Of a DNA stretch of 64,000 nt, positions 2,380 through 54,486 are shown piece by piece. Made by a program: the position numbers and the translations under genes. Positions within the stretch are counted from its first letter, which is position 1, and each line of letters opens with the position of its first letter. Under the pieces are notes generated by a model, which worked only from the letters and a program-made list of their open reading frames with translations, was not told the DNA's origin and did no database searches. This DNA comes from Candidatus Gottesmanbacteria bacterium GW2011_GWC1_43_10 (lineage in GTDB: Bacteria; Patescibacteriota; Microgenomatia; UBA10105). The stretch lies in the NCBI GenBank assembly GCA_000995415.1, contig LCEX01000008.1:8398-72397 (forward strand), read 5' to 3'.

Positions 2380-3887
2380 TAGGGTAAGACACGATAAAAT
2401 TTTAGGTATGTGGGTCCATCGCCGCGTTGATATTGGGCAATGAGTTTAAGTGGCCAATACTCGGGTATTTGTTGCCTTTCTTTAAAGAGTAAGTACGTGG
2501 GTTGGACTTTGGCAGCCTCCTGAAGTTGTTTAGGAAAATCTCCACCAATCGGCCAAATTGGATCAAACTTGACGTTGGGATTTTTACCCAAATATAACTC
2601 CAAGGCCATCGGATACAATCCAAACGTACCTTCGGTTCCCACCAAAATTTGACCATGCTTGCTAGCTTCATCTAAATATGCCACCGCTTCCTTGATCCCG
2701 TAGCCGGCAGGCCAATCATTGATGTACTGTTGTCGGTCTGTGCTGGGAATTGGCGCATGAATCGGATCAAAAATAATCTGCCTGTCAAACCAAATCAATG
2801 GTGATATCAAAAGTACTGTTGCAATCATCAACCAGGTTCTATGACGAATTGTGGCTAATAAATGATCGCCGAATATGATGGTCGGGATAAGTAATGGAAA
2901 AACCATAAATAAAATAAACCGCGGATAGATCACTCGGCCAAATGCAGCCAAGGCAAAAAAAGGAATTATAAAATAGCCTAAGAAAAATAGTGCCCGACGC
3001 AAATTGTGTCTGATATACCAAATATTGGCAGCTAAAATAAGCAAACTTAGTAGCGGAGTCAAGTAACCCACCAACCAGGAAGTCAGACTCTTCAAGTTGT
3101 TATATAGATGACTAAGCGGAGCCCGTAAGAATTCCGCCGGAGTATAAATAAATTCCAAGTTTTTTTGGGCGATGATGTGGCGAAATTCTGACAGTCTTAA
3201 AATATTATTGTAAATCTGCGCTTGAAAAATGATGACTAAACATAAAAGTAACCACTTAAAGAGATTGGCTCCACGCTTTTTTGTGGGCCAGGGCGTAATT
3301 AATAAAGTCAGTGGCAGTAGCATCCAAAAAAAGTTAGCCGAAGATTTAGTCAGCAACCCTGCCCCTATAAAAGTACCCAAAATAAGAGCTAAATCCAATC
3401 TTTGCTTAAGCGCAAAAAGATATGTAAAAAAAAGCACCCAGATGGCAATCGCCGCAAGCAAAGCATCATAAATGGCTAACCTATCATACATCAGAAAAAA
3501 AGGGATTATAAGATATAACAGGCCGCCGATGATCACTCCACGCATCTTGCGCGTCAAATACCAACCAAACACACTTATGCCCACCATGCCCGTAAAACCG
3601 GCTATTATTGAAAGCAATCTCCCGGCAATCAAAGGATCGCTCATTACTTTTAACATCGGTAAAAGCAACCAAATGAAAAGTGGCTGTTTACCATCAACAA
3701 GCGAAATGAATCGCCACCGCGGATCAGCTAAGGCAATCTGTCCCCACCTTAGATATATAGCTTCATCGGTAAAAATCGGGATAATGGTTAAGTTGACTAG
3801 TCTGGTGACAAAATAAACCAGACTCAAACCAAGTGTCAACAAGACGTATGGAAAAATCAGTTTTATGTGTTTGTTCAAGTTGATCAC
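2379..3887 (-). CDS. GT-C family membrane glycosyltransferase (ArnT/PMT-like, GT39/GT83-type)
   Basis: 502 aa, polytopic. The first extracytoplasmic loop has an IFTDEAIYLRWG DE-motif typical of polyprenyl-phosphate-sugar-dependent GT-C enzymes. Confidence 0.7.
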   Translation of the reverse strand: MINLNKHIKLIFPYVLLTLGLSLVYFVTRLVNLTIIPIFTDEAIYLRWGQIALADPRWRFISLVDGKQPLFIWLLLPMLKVMSDPLIAGRLLSIIAGFTGMVGISVFGWYLTRKMRGVIIGGLLYLIIPFFLMYDRLAIYDALLAAIAIWVLFFTYLFALKQRLDLALILGTFIGAGLLTKSSANFFWMLLPLTLLITPWPTKKRGANLFKWLLLCLVIIFQAQIYNNILRLSEFRHIIAQKNLEFIYTPAEFLRAPLSHLYNNLKSLTSWLVGYLTPLLSLLILAANIWYIRHNLRRALFFLGYFIIPFFALAAFGRVIYPRFILFMVFPLLIPTIIFGDHLLATIRHRTWLMIATVLLISPLIWFDRQIIFDPIHAPIPSTDRQQYINDWPAGYGIKEAVAYLDEASKHGQILVGTEGTFGLYPMALELYLGKNPNVKFDPIWPIGGDFPKQLQEAAKVQPTYLLFKERQQIPEYWPLKLIAQYQRGDGPTYLKFYRVLP

Positions 3888-3980
3888 CTTTTTATATATT
3901 TTTATTGTAACACAGGTTCTATGTTGTTTCTCTCAACTATGATTATGTTTACGCCAATAACGAGGTTCGGTTGAGAAAAC

Positions 3981-5504
3981 TTAATTCATGACCCGCAATT
4001 TTTCCCAAACTTCAATCTCTCCGGGAAATATTTGCTGCCAGATGAGTTGGCCGTCTCCCTCCCGCTCCGCCAACCAACTTCGTAGCCTACCGGTTTTCCA
4101 TGGATCCGGTTCAATGATGTAAAATACAGTCGCCTGCTCATCATCTCGATCAGCTGTAAAGGCGTATTCTTTATTTCCATACCACTTAAACAAGTAATGG
4201 TAGTTATAATCAATAACTGATGGGGAATAGACTTGGACGTTAAACGGTTTGCCGGAAGCTCTTTGATAAACCGTTTCGACAACTCGGATCTCGTTTTTAT
4301 AACTTGAGGCATCTCCAGCCCAAGGCTTGGCAAAAAATCTCCAAGGGGCCAAGTTGTAAAGCAATAAACTACTGATGATCACCCCACCCCAAATCCGGTA
4401 TTTTTTTACAAATATATATAACCCCATTCCGATGAGCGGCAGAACCAACGTCGGAAACATATTGATGTAATATTCCCACAGCGTCCCTTGATAAATGACT
4501 AAGTTAATCCCCAACAAACAAATTAGAACTAATAAAAATCTTAACGTTTTTTGTTTGCTGATTTCCTTTCCGCCGGCCATGATCATGATCAGTAATATTA
4601 TGCCGATAAGTTTATTGCTATTTACAAATGCATATGCCAGCAAATTGGTAATTGTCTGGATCCTATCACTCAGACGAACCAATAACGACATTTGGTTTAC
4701 TAAAGTCGGATGAGTCAAAAACTTAAACAGTGAGTACGTTTGGATCCAACTATGCCGCATTTCAAAAATCAGCCTGGGAATTAACCAAAAATCAAAACCC
4801 GCGCCTCCCAAAATCAGCTGTTTCATTTTGGGCAGCTGTCTGGTCAAAACCAACGTCAATCCAAAAACGGGCACAAACAAAATCCCTGCGGCGAGCTCAA
4901 ATTCGAAAATCGCACCCAAGACCGCTGCGACCCAAAACCACGGCCACCGGCCTTTTTGATATTTTACTAAACTTATGAGTAAAAGCAGCATCAGTAGTGG
5001 GACCAGATTGGGATGCCATAACTGAGCCCCAGTTGAGATGTAAAACGGCGATACAGACATGAGTCCCGCCAAAATTAATCCCAGTCGTTCATCTACCAGT
5101 TCTTTCCCCAAAATGAAGGCTAAAACTATGCTCGCTGCCGAAATCAGGTTGAAACTTGCTACCAACCACACCGGATCCCCCTTAAATATCCAGAATAAGG
5201 GTACTAGCAACCAATACCACCATACACCATGAAAAACTCCATCAATCCCTGTCGTCGGTCCAATCAAGGTCAAGTGACGGCCATTGACTATGTCATCCAA
5301 AGCCAAAAAATCTTTACCTTGGTCATAAGTAAAGGCAAAAAAACCATGTATAGTACCACTAAGTCGAGTGTAAATACCAATACCGACAAACAGACTTAAA
5401 AGCAGAATTGACTTGTGTTTTTTGATCCAACTTAAATCAAAAGTTTTTTGCGCCATATACTTAGTATTCCTACTGCAACGATCAAACTTAACCACATGCC
5501 CCAA
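3981..5504 (-). CDS. GT-C family membrane glycosyltransferase (ArnT/PMT-like paralog)
   Basis: 507 aa, polytopic. FAFTYDQGKDFLALDDIVNGRHLTLIGPTTG is paralogous to GFLGDEGRDMLVVKRMIVDHKLTLLGPITS of ORF 7444..8955. The true start is probably the internal Met near 5456 (MAQKTF...). Confidence 0.65.
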   Translation of the reverse strand: MGHVVKFDRCSRNTKYMAQKTFDLSWIKKHKSILLLSLFVGIGIYTRLSGTIHGFFAFTYDQGKDFLALDDIVNGRHLTLIGPTTGIDGVFHGVWWYWLLVPLFWIFKGDPVWLVASFNLISAASIVLAFILGKELVDERLGLILAGLMSVSPFYISTGAQLWHPNLVPLLMLLLLISLVKYQKGRWPWFWVAAVLGAIFEFELAAGILFVPVFGLTLVLTRQLPKMKQLILGGAGFDFWLIPRLIFEMRHSWIQTYSLFKFLTHPTLVNQMSLLVRLSDRIQTITNLLAYAFVNSNKLIGIILLIMIMAGGKEISKQKTLRFLLVLICLLGINLVIYQGTLWEYYINMFPTLVLPLIGMGLYIFVKKYRIWGGVIISSLLLYNLAPWRFFAKPWAGDASSYKNEIRVVETVYQRASGKPFNVQVYSPSVIDYNYHYLFKWYGNKEYAFTADRDDEQATVFYIIEPDPWKTGRLRSWLAEREGDGQLIWQQIFPGEIEVWEKLRVMN

Positions 5505-11140: not shown

Positions 11141-12103
11141 TTATACGTTTTCTCTCCAGTAATTTAGGAGGTCAGACATCGTTTTTTCAAAAGGAATTTC
11201 CGGTTTCCAACCTGTTTTCGTTACAAACTTCGTATTGTCACCAATCAATACTTCAACGTCTGATGGCCGCATCCGGGTCGGATCAGGTTTAATCTCAACT
11301 TTGACTTTGGACATACCTGTAAGTAAATCAAGTACATCCTTGATTTTCCAGGCTTTGCCGGTAGCGATATTGTAAGCTTCACCCGGATCGCATTTTTGAA
11401 CTGCTAGATAATAAGCGCGTACCATATCCCGGACATCAGTATAATCCCGCCGTGCTTCTAGGTTACCGACATGCACTACAGGCTCACGCTTGCCTTTTTC
11501 AATTTCGGCAATTTGTTTGGCGAAACTGGATTCGGCAAACACTTCGCCCCGGCGGGGACCAGTATGGTTAAAACCGCGGGTACGAATAATATTCATTTGA
11601 TAACTTTGGTGATATTGATAACCCAAATAATCCATGGCCAGCTTGGAAACTGCATATGGAGACAAAGGCCGCATCGGATTGGTTTCTTTTATCGGCACTT
11701 CGTTTGGTAACACTTTGCCGTATTCTTCTGAAGAACAAGCTATCTGAATCGGCACCGGTAAACCGGTTTTTCGTACTGCTTCAAACAGATGTGCACTCCC
11801 GATGATGTTGACTTCCAATGTCTGGGTTGGTGATGCCCAGGATGATTGCACAAATGACTGAGCTGCCAAATGAAATATATAGTCAGGTTTGATTTTATCA
11901 ATCACGGTATATAAAGAATGTGCGTCAAGCAAATCAGCTTCTTCAATTTTGATTTTATCTTGGATTGCTTCAATATTTTCCGTTTTTGAACGCCATCTTT
12001 GGATACCATATACTTCAACCCCTTCGGTAAGAAGTAATTCCGCCATGTGACTACCCACAAATCCGGTGATTCCGGTAATTAATGCTTTTTTGCCTTTATT
12101 CAT
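11141..12103 (-). CDS. GDP-mannose 4,6-dehydratase / GDP-4-keto-6-deoxymannose reductase family extended SDR (Gmd/Rmd-like)
   Basis: ALITGITGFVGSHMAELL, YAVSKLAMDY, FNHTGPRRGE, C-terminal GWKPEI. 320 aa. Confidence 0.6.
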   Translation of the reverse strand: MNKGKKALITGITGFVGSHMAELLLTEGVEVYGIQRWRSKTENIEAIQDKIKIEEADLLDAHSLYTVIDKIKPDYIFHLAAQSFVQSSWASPTQTLEVNIIGSAHLFEAVRKTGLPVPIQIACSSEEYGKVLPNEVPIKETNPMRPLSPYAVSKLAMDYLGYQYHQSYQMNIIRTRGFNHTGPRRGEVFAESSFAKQIAEIEKGKREPVVHVGNLEARRDYTDVRDMVRAYYLAVQKCDPGEAYNIATGKAWKIKDVLDLLTGMSKVKVEIKPDPTRMRPSDVEVLIGDNTKFVTKTGWKPEIPFEKTMSDLLNYWRENV

Positions 12104-12245
12104 AAAACCCCCTATAAAAAAATTAAAATGTAAAAATCAAAATTACAATGTAAAAACCTAAAATTTTATAATTTTAAACTGTCATTTTATTTGGCAAAAC
12201 CAGATCTAGCTCCGCTAAACATTTTGCATTTTAAATTTTAGATTA
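12104..12245. repeat. AT-rich intergenic repeat (AAAATGTAAAAATCAAAAT / AACTGTCATTTT words), homologous to 13539..13650
   Basis: Shares TTAAAATGTAAAWATCAAAAT...CAATGT and TTTTAAACTGTCATTTT blocks with the ugd-upstream region. Confidence 0.5.
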
Positions 12246-13538
12246 TTACGATCTACCAACACCAAAATACTCAAATCCCTGCTTTCTCACCTTTACCGGA
12301 TCATACATGTTTCGACCATCAAAAAGAATGGGATGTTTCATGCTAGTAAGAATTTTCTTGAGATCAAGCTGTTTAAATTCATTCCATTCTGTGATCACGA
12401 CTAATGCATCGACACCACTCGCCACTTCATAAGCATTTTCAAGATAAGTTACATTATGCAATAATTTTTTAGCATTTTCCATGGCCACCGGATCAAAGGC
12501 CCGGATTTTGGCACCCGCATTTTGGAGGGCCGTGATGATTTTGACAGAAGGCGCTTCACGCATATCGTCGGTATTTGGCTTGAAAGACAAACCCAAAATG
12601 CCAACAGTTTTACCCTTGATAGGCGACAAAACAGTTTCTATTTTTTTAATGAAAAACTTGCTCGCTTGTTCATTGATATTATCGACTGATTTAAGAAGTT
12701 GAAAATCATAACCGACACTATCGGCAATCGCAATCAAAGCTTTTACATCTTTGGGGAAACAACTGCCTCCATAACCCACACCGGGATAGAGAAATGCCCG
12801 CCCGAGACGATTATCGAGACCCACCCCTTCCAATACCTTTTCCACATCAGCCCCTACTCGTTCTGATAAAAAAGCTACTGCATTGGCAAAAGAAATTTTG
12901 GTCGAAAGGAGTGAATTGGAGGCATACTTAATCATTTCGGCAGTTTCGATGTTTGAAATAACCGTTTTGCCATTAATTGGTTTATGCAGATCCACTATCA
13001 CTTTTTGGGCTTTGGGACTTTCTACTCCTATCACTACCCGATCTGGATGCATGGTGTCATTTAAAGCTGTACCTTCACGTAAAAATTCAGGACACGATGC
13101 AATATCATAAGTTGCTTTGTCAGGTTTGACACTCGCAACAATCGCGCCTACCTTACGATTGGTTCCCGGAGGTACAGTACTTTTGGTAGCCACAACTGTA
13201 TAACCATCCAAATTTTTACCGATTTCCCCAGCCGCGGCAAATACGGCTGTCAAGTCTGCTTCACCGGTTTTTTTGGGAGGAGTACCTACTGCAATAAACA
13301 CGACTTCAGATTCTGGTACGGCTTCTTCATATTTGAGAGTGCATTTGATACGGCCGGCTGCCAAATTCCTGCGCACCATTTCTTCGAGTCCCGGCTCATA
13401 AAAAGGCATGATCCCTTTTTTGAGTTTTTCGATTTTTTCAGGTGTGTGCCCGACAATCCACACCGTATTACCCAAATCAGCAAAAACAGCTGCAGTTACC
13501 AGTCCGACATACCCATGGCCAATAAAAGCAATTACCAT
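12246..13538 (-). CDS. ugd: UDP-glucose 6-dehydrogenase
   Basis: VIAFIGHGYVGLVTA Rossmann region, GGSCFPKDV catalytic Cys motif, 430 aa. Confidence 0.85.
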   Translation of the reverse strand: MVIAFIGHGYVGLVTAAVFADLGNTVWIVGHTPEKIEKLKKGIMPFYEPGLEEMVRRNLAAGRIKCTLKYEEAVPESEVVFIAVGTPPKKTGEADLTAVFAAAGEIGKNLDGYTVVATKSTVPPGTNRKVGAIVASVKPDKATYDIASCPEFLREGTALNDTMHPDRVVIGVESPKAQKVIVDLHKPINGKTVISNIETAEMIKYASNSLLSTKISFANAVAFLSERVGADVEKVLEGVGLDNRLGRAFLYPGVGYGGSCFPKDVKALIAIADSVGYDFQLLKSVDNINEQASKFFIKKIETVLSPIKGKTVGILGLSFKPNTDDMREAPSVKIITALQNAGAKIRAFDPVAMENAKKLLHNVTYLENAYEVASGVDALVVITEWNEFKQLDLKKILTSMKHPILFDGRNMYDPVKVRKQGFEYFGVGRS

Positions 13539-13650
13539 AAATTTAAAATGTAAATATCAAAATGCAAAATGACAATGTGAAATTTTAAAATTAGTATATC
13601 TTTTTACATTTTTAACTGTCATTTTGATTTTTGCATTTTGCACTTTGCAT
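13539..13650. repeat. AT-rich imperfect palindrome (AAAATGCAAAATGACAATG / CTGTCATTTTGATTTTTGCATTTTGCAC) between the rmlD-like gene and ugd
   Basis: Inverted arms built from the same words as 12104..12245. Confidence 0.5.
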
Positions 13651-14526
13651 TTATATGATCCCTTGTCTCTTTATTTCTTCCAAACCTTGACCAAATGCCC
13701 TCATTGTAACTCCCAAAGAAGCTATTTTATCATTTTTAAGACGTAACTCAAGGGGCCGCGGCGCCCGACCTTGGTAATAGCCGGCAGTTTTGACACCAGT
13801 TATCAATCGCTCATCAAAACCAAACTGTCTGGCTAAAACCTGTGCCGCCTCAAAGGGTGAAAGGGACGCGCCTCCTACTCCATGATAAATTCCTGAGGCA
13901 TTTTTAGCAATAAGGGTTTCAATGCTTTTGGCAATATCATCTATAAAAGTAGGCGTAAAAATATGGTCAGTTAAAACCGTCAATGATTCGTTTCTCTGCA
14001 AACGATGATACAGTGTATGAACAAAATCTTTTTTAGGGCCACCGCATTTGGCACGGTAAGGATAAGCTATGCGGAGTACTATATTTTGAGAGCTATTAAG
14101 CACCACTTGTTCACCTGCATATTTAGTTTGACCATACCAATTGATAGGATGCGGAATTGAATTTTCGGTATAAACTTTTTCCGTTCCGTCAAATACAAAA
14201 TCTGTAGAGATATAAAGCACTCGTTTATGAAACTGGTCTGCTGCTTCTACAATATTTCTGGTGCCTTCGACATTGATTTGCCAGGCAGCGCCTGTTTGAC
14301 CTGCTGATTTATCTTTTTCGCAGCCGTCAACATCGGTTTTGGCAGCCATATGGATCACCCATGCGCTTTGTGAATTTTGTATGTGTTTTGTGACGACTTC
14401 TTTTTGGGTGATATCAACTCCAGTTGCCAAACTTAAATCGGTAAATGAGTATTTGGAATCCAAAAGTTCCACTATTCGTGTACCCACCAAACCTGAAAGG
14501 CCAGTACCAAGGATTACTTGTTTCAT
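13651..14526 (-). CDS. dTDP-4-dehydro-6-deoxyhexose reductase (RmlD family)
   Basis: 291 aa. YISTDFVFDG matches the RmlD STDYVFDG motif. N-terminal GTGLSGLVG. Confidence 0.65.
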   Translation of the reverse strand: MKQVILGTGLSGLVGTRIVELLDSKYSFTDLSLATGVDITQKEVVTKHIQNSQSAWVIHMAAKTDVDGCEKDKSAGQTGAAWQINVEGTRNIVEAADQFHKRVLYISTDFVFDGTEKVYTENSIPHPINWYGQTKYAGEQVVLNSSQNIVLRIAYPYRAKCGGPKKDFVHTLYHRLQRNESLTVLTDHIFTPTFIDDIAKSIETLIAKNASGIYHGVGGASLSPFEAAQVLARQFGFDERLITGVKTAGYYQGRAPRPLELRLKNDKIASLGVTMRAFGQGLEEIKRQGII

Positions 14527-14615
14527 AACACAAAAGTTCCCCCTCTTAAGGCAAGTGCGAGGGTTAGGGGGAGTTATGAAGTTATTTGAATAACCCCTCC
14601 TTATCTCCCCTTAAT
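14527..14615. repeat. GC-rich compound palindromic intergenic repeat (family 2) between rfbB and the rmlD-like gene
   Basis: CCCCCTCTTAAGGCAAGTGCGAGGGTTAGGGGGAGTTATGAAGTTATTTGAATAACCCCTCCTTATCTCCCCTTAATTTAAGGGGAGG shares the GAGTTATGAA...ATAACCCCTCC core with 25030..25140. Confidence 0.6.
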
Positions 14616-15632
14616 TTAAGGGGAGGTATTATACTGCATTTTATAATAATTTTGGTACTCACCACTCTTTACGTGTTTCCACCATTCTTGATTTTCTTTA
14701 TACCAATTGATAGTAGTTTGCAAATAAGTATCAAAATCATGAAGTGGTGCCCAACCAAGTTCTTTTTGAATTTTGGTCCAATCAATCGCGTATCTGCGGT
14801 CGTGACCCGGTCGATCTTTGACAAATTCAATCGTTGACTCAGTCTTACCCATAAGACCCGCGATTTTCTTAACGATTTCGAGATTTGAAATGTCGCTAGT
14901 TAATCCTCCCACACAATAAGTCTCACCAATTTTACCTTTTTGAAAAACCGTTTCAATTGCCCGACAGTGATCTTCTACGTATAACCAATCACGCACGTAC
15001 AATCCATCTCCATAGACCGGAACTTTTTTGCCTTCAAGTAAATTGGTGATTGCAAGTGGAATCAACTTCTCCGGATGCTGAAAGGGGCCGTAGTTGTTGG
15101 AACAATTGGTGATCGTAGTTGGAAGTCCATAAGTGTGATAATAAGCCCGGACAAGATGATCAGATCCGGCTTTACTCGCAGAATAAGGGCTGCGGGGATC
15201 ATAAATCGTGGTCTCGGAAAATTTTTCCGTGGTATTTAATTTTAGTGCACCAAAGACTTCATCGGTGGAGACATGATGGAAATGTTTGACTTTTTGTTTG
15301 ACTGCGGCGTCCAACAAAACTTGCGTTCCCAATACATTGGTACGCACAAAAATGGCCGGACCGGAAATAGATCTATCAACATGCGATTCAGCTGCAAAAT
15401 GGACCACTGTATCAACACCCTGCATGACTTTCTCAACTATTGAAGAATCCGTAATGTCGCCTTTGATAAATGAATAGTGGGGATTTTTTTCAACTTCAAC
15501 CAGGTTTTCCAGATTTCCAGCATAAGTTAATGCATCAAGGTTGACGATCGTGTCATCGGGATGATTTTTCAGCCAGTACAAAATAAAGTTGGAGCCGATA
15601 AATCCCGCTCCGCCAGTTACAAGTAATTTCAT
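14616..15632 (-). CDS. rfbB: dTDP-glucose 4,6-dehydratase
   Basis: MKLLVTGGAGFIGSNF...LDALTYAGNLENL, YSASKAGSDHLVRAY, 338 aa. Confidence 0.9.
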   Translation of the reverse strand: MKLLVTGGAGFIGSNFILYWLKNHPDDTIVNLDALTYAGNLENLVEVEKNPHYSFIKGDITDSSIVEKVMQGVDTVVHFAAESHVDRSISGPAIFVRTNVLGTQVLLDAAVKQKVKHFHHVSTDEVFGALKLNTTEKFSETTIYDPRSPYSASKAGSDHLVRAYYHTYGLPTTITNCSNNYGPFQHPEKLIPLAITNLLEGKKVPVYGDGLYVRDWLYVEDHCRAIETVFQKGKIGETYCVGGLTSDISNLEIVKKIAGLMGKTESTIEFVKDRPGHDRRYAIDWTKIQKELGWAPLHDFDTYLQTTINWYKENQEWWKHVKSGEYQNYYKMQYNTSP

Positions 15633-20793: not shown

Positions 20794-21120
20794 TCAGATA
20801 TCAAATTTTGATGCGGCGTATTGAGGTAGCTCAATTGGTTTCCCGTTTACCGGGATTTTAAGTGTCCACCCCAATGTGTTTGCGACAGCCACTCCCACGC
20901 GTACGCCGGTAAACGATCCGGGACCGGGATGAACTTTAATATCCGTCAAATCTTTGAGGGTTAACTTTTCACTTTGTAAAGCTTTTTCAATGAGCGGTAG
21001 TACATTTTGCGATCTGGTTTCTTTGTTTGTGACTTCTACATATTCTTTGCGTATCCCATCAATAATTAGAGCCACTGTGGTTTTACCACTATCTGACGTG
21101 TCAATATATAGAGTTATCAT
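20794..21120 (-). CDS. tsaB: tRNA t6A37 biosynthesis protein TsaB (short, N-terminal-domain-only form)
   Basis: ITLYIDTSDS...HPGPGSFTGVRVGVAVANTLGWTLKIPV is the YeaZ/TsaB signature. Only 108 aa. Confidence 0.65.
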   Translation of the reverse strand: MITLYIDTSDSGKTTVALIIDGIRKEYVEVTNKETRSQNVLPLIEKALQSEKLTLKDLTDIKVHPGPGSFTGVRVGVAVANTLGWTLKIPVNGKPIELPQYAASKFDI

Positions 21121-21124
21121 AATC

Positions 21125-21236
21125 TATTTGTTCATAACTCCACCAAACCTCCTCTTGTCTCAAGAGGAGAAATTCCCTCCCTTAAATTAAGAAAGGGCTA
21201 GCCTGCCTGCCGGCAGGCAGGGGTGAGTTATTAAGT
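21125..21236. repeat. Family-2-related palindromic repeat between tsaB and tsaC, including a CCTGCCTGCCGGCAGGCAGG palindrome
   Basis: TTCATAACTCCACC...CCTCCTCTTGTCTCAAGAGGAG...CCTGCCTGCCGGCAGGCAGGGGTGAGTTATTAAG. Confidence 0.5.
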
Positions 21237-21809: not shown

Positions 21810-22158
21810 AATATAATTCTCAAATTTTCGTTTTTAACCCTTGAAGTGTTTTGCGACATTTTTCTTTTTTAATGCCATTTGAAGTGTTTGCGTAGATTTT
21901 CTTACAAGTGAGTAAGGTGAGGAAACGGCCTCCTGGTCCGAGGTGCTCCTCCCGATACGAACGCAGTTAGAAAATCAACCTGCCTGCCGGCAGGCAGGGC
22001 AAACCTTCACTGGCCGGCTTTCTTTGCTTCATTTCTTGGGCAAGCAAGAAATGAAGAATGATAAAAAAATCAATTTGAACTATGACTTATGTAATTTATT
22101 TTATAAGATTGCCGCGTCGGGACGTACCGTCTGGTACATCCCTCCTCGCAATGACAAA

Positions 22159-25003: not shown

Positions 25004-25172
25004 TCCTTAGAGCCTGTTTGGAAAGTCCCAGTACCCCCCTCTCTTAAGATAAGAGAGGGTTGAGGTGAGTTATGAACGGAATCTGGATTATCTTCATCAT
25101 AACCCCTCCTCACCTCTCCTTATCTTAAGGAGAGGAAGCTAATCGCTATAAACTTTCCAAACAGGCTCTTAG
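25004..25172. repeat. Nested palindromic repeat. Outer 20-bp TIR (CTTAGAGCCTGTTTGGAAAGT / ACTTTCCAAACAGGCTCTTAG) encloses a family-2 element
   Basis: Inner CCCCCCTCTCTTAAGATAAGAGAGGGTTGAGGTGAGTTATGAA...ATAACCCCTCCTCACCTCTCCTTATCTTAAGGAGAGG. It lies between the M23 peptidase gene and ftsX and is translated as a spurious N-terminal extension in the ORF track. Confidence 0.65.
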
Positions 25173-26038
25173 TTTCGTAAATACCGATTGATGGCTAATA
25201 CGCTCGCGAGGATACCCAAAAAAGTCCCTAAAGCTAACATCATGGCCAGAAAAATCGCATAAAATACCAAAGGGATCGGAAACAGAGGTATACCTACAAA
25301 TAGCGGCATCAAAAGCGGCGACGCGTAGACCAAAATCAACACATTGACTATCCAACCGATCAATGATCCCACCAGTCCATAAATGATCCCCTCGGCCATA
25401 AACGGCATCCGGATATACCAGTTGGCTGCGCCCACGAGCTGTAGTATCTCAATTTCTTCGCGTTTCAAGGCTATCTTCATACTGATAACCGTCACTACCG
25501 TAAATAGCGAAACCAGGCTCAAAAAAATGACCAACAGCATCCCTACTTGCCTGATACTCGTTGTCCAGGAAACCAGGATGTTGACCACATCTTCCGGAAA
25601 CACGATATCTGACACGTCGGCTTCTTTTTTGAGGAGGTTTGCCAGGTCTGGTAAATATTCGATTTTGGTAGCCGAAACTTCAATTGATGCCGGCAAAATA
25701 TCTGCCGACACCATCTCCAAAAGCAATGGATCATTTTTGTACTGCTCTTTGTAGATAGCCAAAGCATCCTCTTTGGACACGAATTTGACTGAAGCCACTT
25801 TGTCCATGAGTTTTAGCCGATCTTGCAATTCATTGACGTCTGCCTCTTTTTTGGTATCTTTGAAAAAGATGATAATTTGCGGTTTTTGTTCAAAATATTT
25901 AAGGACTATAGTCGAACCGACGCTCAAAAGAAAAAACATACCGCTGACCAAAAATGTCAGCGTCATCACTGAAATTGCGGCAAATGCCTGATATGGTGAT
26001 CGTCGGATATGACGCCAGGTGTTGCTAAAAGTGCCCAT
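25169..26038 (-). CDS. ftsX: Cell division permease FtsX
   Basis: 289 aa, 4 TM with a large periplasmic loop. Immediately adjacent to ftsE. Confidence 0.8.
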   Translation of the reverse strand: MGTFSNTWRHIRRSPYQAFAAISVMTLTFLVSGMFFLLSVGSTIVLKYFEQKPQIIIFFKDTKKEADVNELQDRLKLMDKVASVKFVSKEDALAIYKEQYKNDPLLLEMVSADILPASIEVSATKIEYLPDLANLLKKEADVSDIVFPEDVVNILVSWTTSIRQVGMLLVIFLSLVSLFTVVTVISMKIALKREEIEILQLVGAANWYIRMPFMAEGIIYGLVGSLIGWIVNVLILVYASPLLMPLFVGIPLFPIPLVFYAIFLAMMLALGTFLGILASVLAINRYLRN

Positions 26039-26148
26039 AAAATAAATTCAAAAGTTAAAATTCAAAAGGCAAAAGTTCAAGTTAAAAATCAAAAGTTCCT
26101 TACCTTTAAATTTTGAATTGTACTTTTGACTTTTGAATTTTGAATTTT
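26039..26148. repeat. 110-bp AT-rich palindrome (CAAAAGT / ACTTTTG words) separating ftsE and ftsX
   Basis: AATTCAAAAGTTAAAATTCAAAAGGCAAAAGTTCAAG...TTTGAATTGTACTTTTGACTTTTGAATTTTGAATT. Confidence 0.5.
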
Positions 26149-26829
26149 TTATCTGTATTTTCCGCTTTTTTCATCTTTGATGATTTTACCTTTTTTCATA
26201 GAGATGACGCGTTTACGCATACTATTGACGATATCGACGTTGTGTGTGGCCATGATGACAGTCGTACCCAACTTGTTGATTTCTCTTAAAATTTTTAATA
26301 TCTCCCAAGAGGTGGTCGGATCCAGATTTCCGGTCGGCTCATCAGCCAATAATACTTTTGGTCCGCCGACAATTGACCGGGCGTTCGCAATCCGTTGCAA
26401 TTCTCCGGCAGATAATTGTACGGGAAATTGATTTATTTTGTCTGTGAGATCAACCAGTTGCAAGACTTCTTTCACCTTTTTGGTGATCTCGTTTGGCGGT
26501 TTGCCTAAGATCTCGAGAGCAATGGCCACATTTTCACCGACTGTACGGTCAAACAATACTTTAAAATCCTGAAATACCATCGCTACCTGCCGACGCAGTT
26601 CGGGAATTTTTGCTTTCAGTAAAGTGGCAATATTAAGCTTATCAAGAAGTATCGTCCCGTTTGTCGGCACGAGATCGTGGATCAACAATCGCAGGATAGT
26701 AGTTTTGCCCGCTCCAGAAGGTCCGACCAAAAAAACAAATTCTCCGCTTTCGACTTTGAAACTGGTATCGGTCAAAGCTTGAGTTTTATCACCATATGTT
26801 TTTGTGACTTGGTCGAAAGAAATAAACAT
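26149..26829 (-). CDS. ftsE: Cell division ATP-binding protein FtsE
   Basis: Walker A GPSGAGKTT, ABC signature LSAGELQR, 226 aa. Confidence 0.9.
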   Translation of the reverse strand: MFISFDQVTKTYGDKTQALTDTSFKVESGEFVFLVGPSGAGKTTILRLLIHDLVPTNGTILLDKLNIATLLKAKIPELRRQVAMVFQDFKVLFDRTVGENVAIALEILGKPPNEITKKVKEVLQLVDLTDKINQFPVQLSAGELQRIANARSIVGGPKVLLADEPTGNLDPTTSWEILKILREINKLGTTVIMATHNVDIVNSMRKRVISMKKGKIIKDEKSGKYR

Positions 26830-28666: not shown

Positions 28667-28902
28667 AGTGTGGTAATTGTACGGCTAAGTGGGAATTTTC
28701 ACAAATATAGAAGGGGTTAGTAACAGTTCACTTTTTGATACTAAAGTTGTTGTTCGAGCGTAGTCGAGAACTATATTACGGAAACTTCCCTGCCAACAGG
28801 CAGGTCAACTCACTACGTTCGTTCGAAAAATAAAATATCGGGGATCTGATAAATTACCCCTTATATTGAGGTAAACCTGTTATAATTCAGATAATAACAA
28901 GT

Positions 28903-30663: not shown

Positions 30664-31569
30664 TTATTTGAAAGCCAAAAGAAGCACCAGGATACCCAGG
30701 ATGATTCTATACACCACAAATGGATACAAAGAATGTTTGCTTACAAACCGTAAAAAATATTTGATGGTGAGATAACCAAAAATTGCAGCTGATACGATTC
30801 CGACTGCAAAAAAAGTTAGTTCCGAAAACGCTAGTTCACCACTCGCAAATAAACCAATGGTTTTGATAAGTTTCAACCCTCCGGCTCCGGCAATGATTGG
30901 TGCGGATAGTAAAAATGCAAACCGCGCTGCTTCTTCGCGTCTCAACCCTCGCCACATGCCGGCGGAAATCGTAATCCCAGACCTGGAAACTCCGGGAATC
31001 AAAGCTACAGCTTGAGCTAGTCCCACAGTCAGACTATCCCTCCAATTCATTTGTTTTATATCCCTTATTTTCTTCCCCACTTTCTCTACATATATAAGGA
31101 CTCCGGAAAAAAGAATTAGGGTGAGAGCAATGAGCACTGGCGAGCGAAATACTGTCTCCACTTTTTTTTCAAGTAACAAACCAAAAAGCACACCGGGAAC
31201 CGTCCCAATGAGCAATAAAAACGCCAAGCGTTGAGAATTGTCATTCCCACCCCGTATGTCATTCCCGCGAAACTTGTCCTCGACTCCGATCGGGGAGCGG
31301 GAATCTATTTTAATGGATCCTCCGGTCAGGCCAGAGGATGACATTTTGGTTATCGCTGCTAATACTAATTTTTTCCAATCGTCTCTAAAAAACCAAAGTA
31401 AAGCAATCAAAGTTCCCAAATGAAGTGCCGCATCAAAAGACAACCCGTATTTTTCCTGGGAAATTCCCAGTAAATTCTCGGCAATTATCAAATGCCCAGT
31501 TGAGGATATCGGCAAAAATTCCGATATTCCCTGCACCGCACCCAATAGAATAGCTTTTACTAATTCCAT
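30664..31569 (-). CDS. uppP: Undecaprenyl-diphosphatase UppP/BacA, carrying a 36-codon in-frame repeat-derived insertion
   Basis: EFLPISSTGH and PGVSRSGITISAG motifs. Loop 2 is about 20 aa longer than in E. coli and is encoded by a palindromic repeat at 31239..31346. Confidence 0.85.
   Translation of the reverse strand: MELVKAILLGAVQGISEFLPISSTGHLIIAENLLGISQEKYGLSFDAALHLGTLIALLWFFRDDWKKLVLAAITKMSSSGLTGGSIKIDSRSPIGVEDKFRGNDIRGGNDNSQRLAFLLLIGTVPGVLFGLLLEKKVETVFRSPVLIALTLILFSGVLIYVEKVGKKIRDIKQMNWRDSLTVGLAQAVALIPGVSRSGITISAGMWRGLRREEAARFAFLLSAPIIAGAGGLKLIKTIGLFASGELAFSELTFFAVGIVSAAIFGYLTIKYFLRFVSKHSLYPFVVYRIILGILVLLLAFK
31239..31346 (-). mobile_element. MITE/RPE-like palindromic repeat (GTCATYCC...GGGAATGACA family), 108 bp, inserted in-frame inside uppP
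   Basis: The coding-strand sequence AATGTCATCCTCTGGCCTGACCGGAGGATCCAT...GATTCCCGC...CGCGGGAATGACATACGGGGTGGGAATGACAA aligns end-to-end with 41186..41295. Confidence 0.7.
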
Positions 31570-40673: not shown

Positions 40674-40754
40674 CATGAAAATGGAAATCTATTTCCTGGA
40701 TTCCCGCTGGAGTTTACCCTGATGAAAATCGGGGCGGGAATGACGCTGCGTAAC
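40674..40754 (+). repeat. Shorter copy of the same MITE-like repeat family
   Basis: TTGTCATTCCC...GGATTCCCGCTGG...ATCGGGGCGGGAATGAC. Termini and the internal GATTCCCGC/GCGGGAAT match the family. Confidence 0.55.
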
Positions 40755-41185: not shown

Positions 41186-41295
41186 TGTCATCCTCCGGCT
41201 TGACCGAAGGATCCATAGTTACTTTGAAAACGGATTCCCGCTTTTCCGCCATAGGCGGACAGGCGGCGGGAATGACATACAGGGCGGGAATGACA
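41186..41295 (+). repeat. Full-length copy of the MITE-like repeat family
   Basis: TGTCATCCTCCGGCTTGACCGAAGGATCCAT...GGATTCCCGCTTTTCCGCCATAGGCGGACAGGCGGCGGGAATGACATACAGGGCGGGAATGACAA, 20 bp upstream of dinB. Confidence 0.65.
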
Positions 41296-41314
41296 ACCCT
41301 AATAATATATAACA

Positions 41315-54377: not shown

Positions 54378-54397
54378 AAATATCTCCCGCTAAGAGC

Positions 54398-54486
54398 CTG
54401 TTTGAAAACTGGTATTCAAAGGATAAACAGCTCATAGGAGCCTGTAATGATCCCGATTACTATCGGGATCAAACAGGCTCTAAGAC
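54398..54486. repeat. Palindromic repeat with the same outer TIR (TAAGAGCCTGTTTGA...TCAAACAGGCTCTAAG) as 25004..25172 but a different core (GATCCCGATTACTATCGGGATC hairpin)
   Basis: Direct comparison of the terminal 15-16 nt with the 25.0-kb element. Confidence 0.55.

What the first reader, a model, noticed from the sequence alone, without database searches (positions are those of the whole stretch)
25004..25172. GC-rich nested palindromic repeat family occupying intergenic gaps (14.5, 21.1, 25.0, 54.4 kb)
Four elements share parts. A core is present at 14527-14615 and 25030-25140, and rearranged at 21125-21236. It consists of hairpin-1, then GAGTTATGAA...ATAACCCCTCC, then hairpin-2 (CCCCTC..TTAAG..GAGGG motifs). 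A 15-20 bp terminal inverted repeat TTAGAGCCTGTTTG occurs at 25004-25172 and 54398-54486. The 25-kb copy looks like a core element nested inside a TIR-bounded element. Each copy exactly fills an intergenic gap (rmlB/rmlD, tsaB/tsaC, M23/ftsX). This is consistent with REP/MITE-like elements that may act as terminators or mRNA stabilisers. The ORF track translates one copy as a false 39-aa N-terminal extension of the M23 peptidase.
Basis: seen in the sequence. Interest (0 to 1): 0.6.

Follow-up and report, generated by a model that had tools for sequence, protein, structure and literature searches.

The report
Two nested miniature mobile elements
The repeats are real insertions in a groundwater Gottesmanbacteria (CPR) genome and belong to two unrelated families: an ordinary IS5-type MITE, and gene-less remnants of a 420-bp cassette that encodes a DUF559 endonuclease, is bounded by hairpins and occurs in several bacterial phyla.

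Summary
All four elements exist and are not chance. Three of the four junctions could be compared with relatives, and there they are only 0-14 nt long, so those three elements are insertions.

They are two families, not one.

(A) MITE, at 25010-25168 and 54394-54480. It has 17-nt inverted ends GAGCCTGTTTGRAAA and a 3-bp TTA/TAA duplication. An 885-bp IS5-family insertion sequence on Gluconobacter plasmids has the same ends and the same duplication. The duplicated TAA is now the ftsX stop codon.

(B) The 'core', at 14537-14628, 25035-25137 and, permuted, 21121-21233. It matches the two ends of a ~420-bp cassette. The left end is a hairpin, then GGGKGAGTT, then the ATG of a 125-aa DUF559 (Vsr-like) endonuclease gene. 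The right end is ATAACCCCTCC plus a hairpin, and it encodes the protein's ...TPPxLPLS tail. Intact cassettes and many gene-less versions occur in Patescibacteria, Nitrospirae, Geobacteraceae and Chloroflexi.

The 25-kb copy is a B element nested inside an A element. No other B copy in about 170 loci has A's ends.

How B moves is unknown. A terminator role is not supported. I found no published description of B.

The parts
25007..25009 (.). Left TTA target-site duplication of the outer MITE
   Evidence: The direct repeat TTA...TTA flanks GAGCC...GGCTC. All 8 elements of this type that I inspected have TTA or TAA on both sides.
25010..25168 (.). Outer MITE of IS5-family type. Inverted ends are GAGCCTGTTTGGAAAGT (25010-25026) and ACTTTCCAAACAGGCTC (25152-25168).
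   Evidence: The ends are identical to those of an 885-bp IS5-family insertion sequence in L020/L019. The whole element folds at -87.5 kcal/mol, z = -9.85. It is absent from the ftsX/M23 junction in L005-L007.
25169..25171 (-). Right TTA duplication, which is the TAA stop codon of ftsX on the minus strand
   Evidence: On the minus strand ftsX reads ...CGA AAC TAA|GAGCCTG. The ORF is 25169..26038.
25035..25137 (+). Inner gene-less DUF559-cassette derivative, heads facing in. Left end: hairpin 25037-25059 plus GGTGAGTTATGAA, ending at 25076. Then 22 nt. Right end: ATAACCCCTCC 25099-25109 plus hairpin 25113-25135.
   Evidence: It aligns to the first 40 and last 36 nt of the 420-bp L065 cassette, with the ORF missing. 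Units were found. The residual mini-ORF is MNGIWIIFIITPPHLSLS.
14537..14628 (+). Gene-less DUF559-cassette derivative, heads facing in, in the rmlB/rmlD junction. Left hairpin is decayed; GAGTTATGAA is at 14571-14580. Right end: ATAACCCCTCC 14590-14600 plus hairpin 14605-14625. The rmlB stop codon (14616-14618) lies inside the right hairpin.
   Evidence: The junction overlaps or is 4 nt long in relatives L198-L201. RmlB ends ...QYNTSP* here and ...QYSS* in L199.
21121..21233 (-). Permuted (heads facing out) derivative between tsaC and tsaB. On the plus strand: head TTCATAACTCCACC 21131-21144, hairpin 21149-21169, hairpin 21175-21197, palindrome 21202-21221, inverted head GGTGAGTTAT 21222-21231. 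The tsaC stop codon is at 21231-21233.
   Evidence: It folds as an outer head-to-head stem that encloses three hairpins, -50.3 kcal/mol, z = -6.3. tsaC and tsaB overlap by 4 nt in L006.
54391..54483 (.). Second MITE of the same IS5 type: body 54394-54480, TAA duplications at 54391-54393 and 54481-54483. It lies between two convergent genes.
   Evidence: It aligns end to end with two copies at other sites in a related Gottesmanbacteria contig (L005 514-663 and 4045-4192), which carry an extra 57-nt internal palindrome.
21979..21998 (.). Solo copy of the 20-nt palindrome CCTGCCTGCCGGCAGGCAGG, which also sits inside the 21-kb element
   Evidence: It looks like a terminator on the minus strand. 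It is a separate small palindrome, not a DUF559-type unit.

Best explanation
The window comes from a Candidatus Gottesmanbacteria (CPR) groundwater genome. It carries non-autonomous copies of two unrelated mobile-element families.

Family A (25010-25168 and 54394-54480) is a MITE made of the ends of an IS5-family insertion sequence; its size and duplication resemble the IS1031 group. A DDE transposase supplied in trans would cut at the GAGCCTGTTTG... ends and insert at TWA, duplicating 3 bp. At 25 kb it landed on the TAA stop codon of ftsX. The duplication restored that stop and left 10 nt before the M23 start codon.

Family B (14537-14628, 25035-25137 and, permuted, 21121-21233) consists of internally deleted copies of a ~420-bp cassette. 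The two ends of the cassette are imperfect inverted repeats of about 40-45 nt, each with a 10-bp hairpin. The left end supplies GGGKGAGTT and the ATG of a 125-aa DUF559 (Vsr-like PD-(D/E)XK) endonuclease. The right end encodes its ...(I/V)TPPxLPL tail and, in several copies, its stop codon.

At 25 kb a B element sits in the middle of an A element.

Shown: the anatomy of both families, homology to an autonomous-looking partner for each, absence of three of the four elements from orthologous junctions, spread of B across phyla, and compensatory changes in the B hairpins.

Inferred: A is moved by an IS5 transposase; none was found here. B is spread by the DUF559 nuclease acting on the hairpin ends, either by homing-type double-strand-break repair or by excision and insertion. 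Its gene-less copies would ride on nuclease made elsewhere in the genome or lineage. Copies persist only at gene junctions because they bring a stop codon, or a ribosome-binding-like GGAG and an ATG, and so do little harm.

The confidence given (0.75) is for the identity of the two families and the nesting. For the proposed way in which family B moves I would give about 0.3.
For: Organism. The exact FtsX protein is found in groundwater MAGs, and its nearest named relatives are Gottesmanbacteria.

Family A.
- The terminal repeat is enriched in the window.
- A 3-bp TWA duplication flanks 8 of 8 elements.
- An 885-bp insertion sequence has the same ends and a TTA duplication. Its protein matches DDE_Tnp_1 plus DUF4096, and NCBIfam IS5 family transposase at 226 bits against a cut-off of 110.
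- Related copies lie at other sites in a relative.
- The site is empty in three relatives.

Family B.
- A 22-nt degenerate pattern taken from the core gave 54 loci in GTDB genomes, against roughly 9 expected by my estimate. About 48 of the 56 matches carry the hairpin, which was not part of the pattern.
- In those loci, 125-147-aa ORFs start at the ATG of the left head and read through the right head. Pfam scores two of them as DUF559 at E = 1e-33 to 1e-36.
- Head-to-head spacing is bimodal: 2-53 nt in 34 pairs, and 346-399 nt in 8. The four pairs at exactly 346 nt hold intact DUF559 ORFs; three of the other four hold DUF559 similarity without an intact ORF from the head ATG.
- In a metagenome scan, 99 of 126 left ends are followed by ORFs of 30 codons or fewer.
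- Among homologues found by protein similarity alone, 51 of the top 120 carry the TPP tail. Four of four whose DNA was fetched have both ends.
- The 25-kb core matches the first 40 and last 36 nt of the Gottesmanbacteria cassette in L065, including the lineage-specific TPPH variant.
- Hairpin pairs covary: for example C-G in 27 sequences and U-A in 11 at one pair, and no shuffle of 500 reached the observed covariation score.
- Sites are empty in relatives for all three window copies.

Nesting. None of about 170 other B-bearing loci has A's ends next to a unit.
Against: - No IS5 transposase and no DUF559 gene lies in the window or in the relatives' loci L005-L007. Autonomous partners in this genome are therefore unproven.
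- The only full-length insertion sequence with A's ends is from Acetobacteraceae, far from CPR.
- No target duplication or defined insertion site could be read for B, so transposition is not shown.
- Left-end units also sit in front of ordinary genes such as kdpB and kdpC. The link to DUF559 could therefore be that of a preferred neighbour rather than an enzyme and its substrate.
- Most loci were fetched with patterns inside the ends, so conservation of the ends measured on them is circular. Only the protein-selected loci are unbiased.
- Only three B copies and two A copies were counted in 64 kb. The genome-wide number is unknown.
Confidence: 0.75

Rival explanations
1. The core units are REP/REPIN-type elements spread by a REP-associated tyrosine (Y1/HUH) transposase. 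The DUF559 gene is only a frequent neighbour or cargo.
For: The units are a conserved head plus a hairpin. They occur singly, head-to-head and tail-to-tail, like REPs in BIMEs. A gene flanked by two inverted units is also the arrangement described for RAYTs (PMC3116915).
Against: The flanked gene is DUF559 in every intact case. The head is about 14-20 nt long and contains no GTAG. The right head is translated as the conserved tail of the protein in 51 of 120 homologues. No Y1 transposase recurred among neighbouring ORFs.
Confidence: 0.1
2. The elements are host-evolved RNA structures (terminators, processing sites or mRNA stabilisers, or translation signals) that arose in place between genes. 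They are not mobile DNA.
For: All copies lie at gene junctions within operons. The transcribed strands fold far better than shuffles (z = -2.5 to -9.9). The left end offers GGAG plus ATG in a genome whose genes otherwise mostly lack Shine-Dalgarno sequences. The stems covary.
Against: The same junctions are 0-14 nt long in relatives. Nearly identical 40-nt ends occur in unrelated phyla and beside unrelated genes. No U-tract follows the hairpins at e14 or e25, and the terminator scan does not flag them. There was no Rfam match. One copy sits inside a transposon-type MITE.
Confidence: 0.07
3. The head pairs are attC-like recombination sites and the DUF559 ORF is a gene cassette moved by an integron-type or other tyrosine recombinase. 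The permuted 21-kb copy would come from a circular intermediate opened at a different point.
For: The heads GTTATGA and TCATAAC are exact reverse complements containing GTT and AAC, as attC core and inverse-core sites do. The heads-in and heads-out forms are circular permutations of each other. A right end followed directly by a left end flanks many cassettes.
Against: GTTATGA does not fit GTTRRRY. Each arm holds its own perfect hairpin, unlike attC. Copies are scattered between essential genes, not in one array. No integrase recurred among neighbours.
Confidence: 0.08

Closest known systems
Bacterial MITEs derived from IS5-family insertion sequences (IS1031-group type; Nezha of cyanobacteria is an example I recall from memory)
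   Same: Short and non-coding. 17-nt terminal inverted repeats identical to those of a full IS5-family element. 3-bp TWA duplication. Hairpin-forming. Intergenic. Present or absent between relatives.
   Different: The host is a CPR bacterium. No transposase with these ends was seen in the lineage. One copy carries a second, unrelated element inside it.
REP / REPIN elements and their RAYT transposases (PMC3116915)
   Same: A head plus a hairpin as the unit. Units in inverted pairs. Many gene-less copies and a few copies that flank a small nuclease-type gene.
   Different: The flanked gene is a PD-(D/E)XK DUF559 endonuclease, not a Y1 transposase. There is no GTAG. The ends overlap the start and the C-terminal codons of the gene. 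Nearly identical ends occur across phyla.
Free-standing homing endonuclease genes, including the Vsr/DUF559-clade enzyme I-Bth0305I (3r3p; grouped with DUF559 in PMC3424549)
   Same: A small selfish-looking endonuclease gene of the same structural clade. Patchy distribution across phyla. Inserted between conserved genes.
   Different: Known homing genes spread into one cognate site and have no terminal inverted hairpin repeats or gene-less miniature derivatives. No recognition site is known here.
Palindromic 'multicopy nucleotide sequences' of Geobacter genomes (PMC2996986, PMC2700814)
   Same: Pyrimidine-then-purine hairpins such as CCCCCTCCC-GTCAA-GGGGAGGGGG that fill intergenic regions. Some of my hits are in Geobacteraceae.
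   Different: The published consensus has a different head and stem. My motifs were not found in the supplements of those papers. No link to DUF559 is reported there.

Membership tests
MITE of an IS5-family insertion sequence | Terminal inverted repeats | tested here: met
   The repeats are 17 nt at 25 kb. At 54 kb, GAGCCTGTTTG at one end faces CAAACAGGCTC at the other.
MITE of an IS5-family insertion sequence | Ends match those of an autonomous element that encodes a DDE transposase | tested here: met
   L020 1503-2387 has GAGCCTGTTTGGAAAATC at both ends. Its 285-aa protein matches DDE_Tnp_1 plus DUF4096 and NF033580 at 226 bits against a cut-off of 110.
MITE of an IS5-family insertion sequence | Target-site duplication of fixed length (3 bp, TWA) | tested here: met
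   8 of 8 elements have it, including both window copies and the full-length insertion sequence.
MITE of an IS5-family insertion sequence | Small and without a transposase gene | tested here: met
   The bodies are 159 and 87 nt. tblastn with the transposase finds nothing in the window.
MITE of an IS5-family insertion sequence | Several copies at different sites; presence or absence between relatives | tested here: met
   Two copies here and two at other sites in L005. The ftsX/M23 site is empty in L005-L007. The genome-wide count was not obtained.
MITE of an IS5-family insertion sequence | Matching transposase present in the same genome or lineage | not tested
   Only 64 kb of this genome and about 43 kb of relatives were available, and none was found there.
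REP / REPIN (RAYT-associated) | Conserved GTAG-type head 5' of a short palindrome | tested here: not met
   The head is TTCATAACYC..CC. It contains no GTAG.
REP / REPIN (RAYT-associated) | Inverted units flank a Y1 (RAYT) transposase gene | tested here: not met
   The flanked gene is DUF559. No other family recurred among neighbours.
REP / REPIN (RAYT-associated) | Tens to hundreds of copies per genome | not testable with these tools
There are three copies in 64 kb.
Derivative of the DUF559 cassette with hairpin ends (no published family found) | Both ends match the left and right ends of an intact cassette | tested here: met
   e25 and e14 align to the first ~40 and last 36 nt of L065. Left-type and right-type units are distinct and are paired in the same way in many taxa.
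Derivative of the DUF559 cassette with hairpin ends (no published family found) | DUF559 genes chosen independently of the DNA motif carry these ends | tested here: met
   51 of 120 protein homologues have the TPP tail. L193, L194, L202 and L203 all have both ends.
Derivative of the DUF559 cassette with hairpin ends (no published family found) | Mobility shown by target duplication or an excision footprint | tested here: inconclusive
   The junctions are empty in relatives, but no duplication or exact boundary could be read.
Intrinsic terminator | G+C-rich hairpin followed by a U-tract on the transcribed strand | tested here: not met
   e14 and e25 are not flagged. Only one weak hit lies inside e21.
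Integron attC site | Core sites GTTRRRY / RYYYAAC and an array next to an integrase | tested here: not met
   GTTATGA does not fit the core consensus. The copies are scattered, and no integrase recurred among neighbouring ORFs.
Any Rfam RNA family | Match at the gathering score | tested here: not met
   There were 0 matches in the whole window.

The most novel reading that the evidence does not exclude
The ~420-bp unit (hairpin end, 125-aa DUF559 endonuclease, hairpin end) is an autonomous mobile element of a kind not yet described. A Vsr-like PD-(D/E)XK nuclease acts on its own hairpin-bearing inverted ends, and that is enough to spread the element and its gene-less miniatures within genomes and between phyla (CPR, Nitrospirae, Desulfobacterota, Chloroflexi). 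The window's cores are its MITE-like offspring. It would be among the smallest autonomous mobile elements known.
Probability: 0.3. Interest if true: 0.85.

Novelty: new variant of a known kind. Interest (0 to 1): 0.65.

Why it matters
CPR genomes are small and tightly packed, and are usually thought to carry little mobile DNA. Here about 550 nt of selfish DNA from two families (plus other palindromes seen in passing) has been wedged into junctions where genes overlap in relatives. These insertions rewrite stop codons, C-termini and start contexts of essential genes (ftsX, rmlB, tsaC/tsaB), and they mislead gene callers.

The wider point is the second family. A DUF559 'domain of unknown function' endonuclease, annotated in bulk as 'very short patch repair endonuclease', turns out to sit in a conserved cassette with hairpin ends and many gene-less derivatives across phyla. 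That gives DUF559 a testable role as the nuclease of a mobile element. It also explains a class of intergenic hairpins, and the odd ...TPPxLPL(PQGEE) protein tails, seen in groundwater and sediment genomes.

Tried and rejected
1. First guess: cyanobacterial small dispersed repeats or Nezha MITEs, from the look of the repeats. Dropped when the exact FtsX protein placed the window in CPR groundwater MAGs. The key paper (PMC2527708) is not held.

2. Full-text searches for the motif strings returned only primer hits. DUF559, Geobacter multicopy-sequence and homing-endonuclease searches gave no description of the element.

3. Looking for the parent insertion sequence next to single TIR hits in viral contigs found only phage genes. 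The plasmid collection gave it instead.

4. Rfam gave no match.

5. The terminator idea is not supported.

6. Is the 18-codon mini-ORF of the 25-kb core, which keeps the start and the tail in frame, a sign of a translated peptide? Across mini-elements the frames are 10:8:4, so there is no bias.

7. Is the composite (A ends around a B core) itself a travelling unit? No other locus shows it.

8. Reading a target duplication for B from filled and empty junctions. ATAACTC is repeated at both sides of the 21-kb copy, but it is part of the conserved head, so this is uninformative.

9. Comparing conservation of ends against the ORF gave 90% against 64%. I discount this because most loci were selected by a pattern inside the ends.

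10. tsaD, where relatives keep an intact cassette, is not in the window.

Full report
**What is there.**
- The 14-mer TWAGAGCCTGTTTG occurs four times in the window, as two inverted pairs, against 0.44 expected.
- The 14.5-kb and 25-kb cores align over about 100 nt (E=6e-9). The 21-kb copy shares an arm with them in the opposite order (E=3e-4).
- Seven of the eight perfect G+C-containing hairpins in the 64 kb with a stem of at least 8 bp lie in these elements or in the related palindrome at 21979.
- The transcribed strands fold much better than shuffles: -87.5 kcal/mol and z = -9.85 for the 25-kb element, z = -6.3 for the 21-kb element, and z = -6.6 to -8.0 for the two strands of the 54-kb element. 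The 14.5-kb element is weaker at z = -2.5.

**Organism and context.** I first suspected a cyanobacterium. The exact FtsX protein of the window instead occurs in groundwater metagenomes and MAGs (GCA_000998235.1, GCA_003535735.1, JGI 3300025323), and the nearest named relatives are Candidatus Gottesmanbacteria.
- The flanking genes are rmlB/rmlD, tsaC/tsaB, ftsX/M23 peptidase, and two convergent genes at 54 kb.
- Three of four public records call the M23 gene with the false 39-residue extension that runs into the element (423 aa against 384 aa).

**The elements are insertions.** I fetched orthologous loci of relatives.

| Junction | Relatives | Window |
|---|---|---|
| ftsX / M23 | 4, 13 and 14 nt (FtsX 63-73% identical) | 172 nt |
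| tsaC / tsaB | 4-nt overlap | 110 nt |
| rmlB / rmlD | overlap or 4 nt, in four relatives (RmlD up to 78% identical) | 89 nt |

**Family A: the TIR-bounded element is an IS5-type MITE.**
- On the gene strand the 25-kb element reads ...AAC TAA|GAGCCTGTTTGGAAAGT...ACTTTCCAAACAGGCTC|TAA GGACTCGGTC ATG. The 54-kb element is also TAA|GAGCC...GGCTC|TAA.
- The same ends with a TTA or TAA direct repeat bound two ~150-nt copies at other sites in a related Gottesmanbacteria contig (L005). They also bound small elements of 48 to about 200 nt in high-G+C contigs of the viral collection.
- An 885-bp insertion sequence on Gluconobacter plasmids has these ends and this repeat too. Its 285-aa protein is a DDE_Tnp_1/DUF4096 transposase that passes the NCBIfam IS5-family model.
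- In all, 8 of 8 elements have the 3-bp TWA duplication.
- The size and the duplication fit what I recall for the IS1031 group of the IS5 family. That subgroup assignment is from memory, not tested.
- At 25 kb the target was the ftsX stop codon. The duplication keeps a TAA for ftsX, and removing element plus one TAA leaves a 10-nt spacer, like the relatives.
- The 54-kb copy aligns end to end with the L005 copies but lacks their internal 57-nt G+C-rich palindrome.
- No IS5 transposase is present in the sequence I hold for this lineage.

**Family B: the core is a remnant of a DUF559 cassette.**
- The core consists of two units in inverted orientation. Each unit is a head (TTCATAACYC..CC) followed by a 10-bp-stem hairpin (CCCTCTCTTA-nnn-TAAGAGAGGG or CCTCCCCTTA-nnn-TAAGGGGAGG).
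- A degenerate 22-nt pattern covering the head and the first stem bases found 54 loci in the one-genome-per-species collection, where I estimate about 9 by chance. About 48 of the 56 matches continue into a complete hairpin that the pattern did not specify.
- The hosts are Patescibacteria (Gottesman-, Uhr-, Doudna-, Parcu-, Saccharibacteria), Nitrospirae, Geobacteraceae and other Desulfobacterota, and Chloroflexi.
- Clustering the neighbouring ORFs gave one recurrent family: 125-147-aa proteins whose ATG is the ATG inside GAGTTATGAA. Pfam calls two of them DUF559 at E = 1e-33 to 1e-36. The closest solved structure is the 'endonuclease-like protein' 3HRL.
- A review places DUF559 with Vsr and with a group I intron homing endonuclease (PMC3424549).

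**Anatomy of the cassette.** In L065 (Gottesmanbacteria), L030, L060 and L064 (Nitrospirae), L182 and others the layout is the same:
- hairpin, TTAGGGKGAGTT, ATG, ORF;
- then ...(F/K)(I/V) T P P x L P L (S/P), where ATAACCCCTCC and the second hairpin are the last codons, and in several copies the stop codon.
- The two ends are imperfect inverted repeats of each other, but they are consistently distinguishable as a left type and a right type across phyla.
- Head-to-head spacing is bimodal: 2-53 nt in 34 pairs and 346-399 nt in 8 pairs. The four pairs at exactly 346 nt hold intact DUF559 ORFs. Three of the other four show DUF559 similarity but no intact ORF from the head ATG, and one shows none.
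- So gene-less forms greatly outnumber intact ones, as MITEs outnumber their parent elements.

**Control for circularity.** Most of these loci were chosen by a DNA pattern inside the ends, so I also started from the protein.
- Of the 120 best database homologues of the L065 protein, 51 carry an (I/V)TP(P/L) tail by a strict test, and more have close variants.
- All four homologues whose DNA I fetched (L193, L194, L202, L203) have both ends.
- Three Gottesmanbacteria-like genomes keep an intact cassette just upstream of tsaD. One of them comes from the same sample as the closest FtsX relative.

**The window copies.**
- The 25-kb core aligns to the first 40 and last 36 nt of the 420-bp L065 cassette with the interior missing. 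It shares the lineage-specific TPPH variant of the tail.
- Its residual 18-codon ORF keeps the start and the tail in frame. Across mini-elements, however, the frames are 10:8:4, so I read nothing into that.
- The 14.5-kb copy has the same layout with a decayed left hairpin. It replaced the end of rmlB (...QYNTSP* against ...QYSS* in a relative), and the rmlB stop codon lies in the right hairpin.
- The 21-kb copy has the heads outward and three hairpins between them, one being the unrelated palindrome CCTGCCTGCCGGCAGGCAGG. This heads-out form is as common elsewhere as the heads-in form (57 and 55 adjacent pairs). It often sits between ordinary genes, for example at the kdpB and kdpC starts, with the downstream gene starting at or near the head's ATG.
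- No DUF559 gene is in the window.

**Nesting.** In about 170 other loci with family B units, none has GAGCCTGTTTG-type ends beside a unit. Small extra palindromes also nest in both families elsewhere.

**Structure under constraint.** On the pattern-selected set, the ten stem pairs are 81% paired despite about 8 chance rows. Changes are compensated (C-G in 27 sequences and U-A in 11 at one pair), and no shuffle of 500 reached the observed covariation score or percentage paired. The head variant travels with the stem variant: CTCACCC with CCCTCTC, and CTCCCCC with CCCCCTC.

**How it probably works.**
- For A the mechanism follows from the family: a DDE transposase in trans, insertion at TWA, 3-bp duplication. 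This is inferred, since no transposase was seen here.
- For B only the anatomy is shown. My preferred reading is that the DUF559 nuclease acts on the hairpin ends and spreads the cassette, and that gene-less copies are deletion derivatives using nuclease made elsewhere. Whether this is homing-type repair or true transposition I cannot say, because no target duplication or exact boundary could be read.
- Rivals are REP/RAYT-type mobilisation, attC-like site-specific recombination (the heads-in and heads-out forms are circular permutations), and host RNA structures evolved in place.
- The last rival is contradicted by the empty junctions and the cross-phylum identity. A terminator role is not supported and there is no Rfam match.

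**Known or new.**
- A is a new member of a well-known kind.
- For B I found no description in the held literature. Geobacter papers list other palindromic 'multicopy sequences' with a different consensus.
- The absence of a paper in this library does not prove novelty.

Noticed in passing
window 12100-12250, 13537-13654, 26027-26171: A+T-rich long palindromes built of AAAATG/CAAAAT-type words, with arms of 54 and 70 nt. They fill gaps that are much shorter in relatives: 5 nt for rmlD to the next gene, and 9-99 nt for ftsE to ftsX. This looks like a third family of inserted palindromes.
   Followed up: partly
window 31238-31343 (+), 41186-41296 (-), partial copy near 40734: A ~110-nt repeat holding TGTCATTCCCGC / GCGGGAAT and GGATCCTCCGG...GGAGGATGACA hairpins. 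It is present as an inverted pair 10 kb apart at 90-94% identity. The 31.2-kb copy lies inside a listed ORF.
   Followed up: partly
window 21202-21221, 21979-21998, variant at 28785-28805: The 20-nt palindrome CCTGCCTGCCGGCAGGCAGG occurs inside the 21-kb element and also alone. The solo copy at 21979 is followed by a T-run on the minus strand and is flagged as terminator-like.
   Followed up: partly
window, all gene starts: Almost none of about 50 gene starts has a Shine-Dalgarno-like sequence upstream; the regions are A+T-rich. The GGAG-rich left end of the DUF559 element is therefore unusual in this genome.
   Followed up: no
window 20794-21120; L005 15744-16070; L006 14250-14585: The TsaD-family gene taken here to be tsaB encodes only 108-111 residues in this organism and its relatives, about half the usual length as far as I recall.
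   Followed up: no
L065 127-546, L202 130-550, L203 160-583; L033 ~3600-4060; L194 9960-10380: Intact DUF559 cassettes sit just upstream of tsaD in three Gottesmanbacteria-like genomes, and directly after tRNA genes in two other CPR-type contigs. This hints at preferred sites.
   Followed up: partly
L005 514-663 and 4045-4192; L021 4953-4983: Extra small G+C-rich palindromes are nested inside copies of both families: a 57-nt insert in the L005 MITEs relative to the window's 54-kb copy, and GCAGAGCTAAGCTCTGC between hairpin and head in one L021 copy. Nesting of tiny palindromes seems common.
   Followed up: partly
protein homologues P0121-P0240: Many DUF559 proteins annotated 'very-short-patch-repair endonuclease' end in ...TPPxLPL(PQGEE) or similar proline-rich tails. 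These tails are translations of the right-end repeat rather than part of the Pfam domain.
   Followed up: partly
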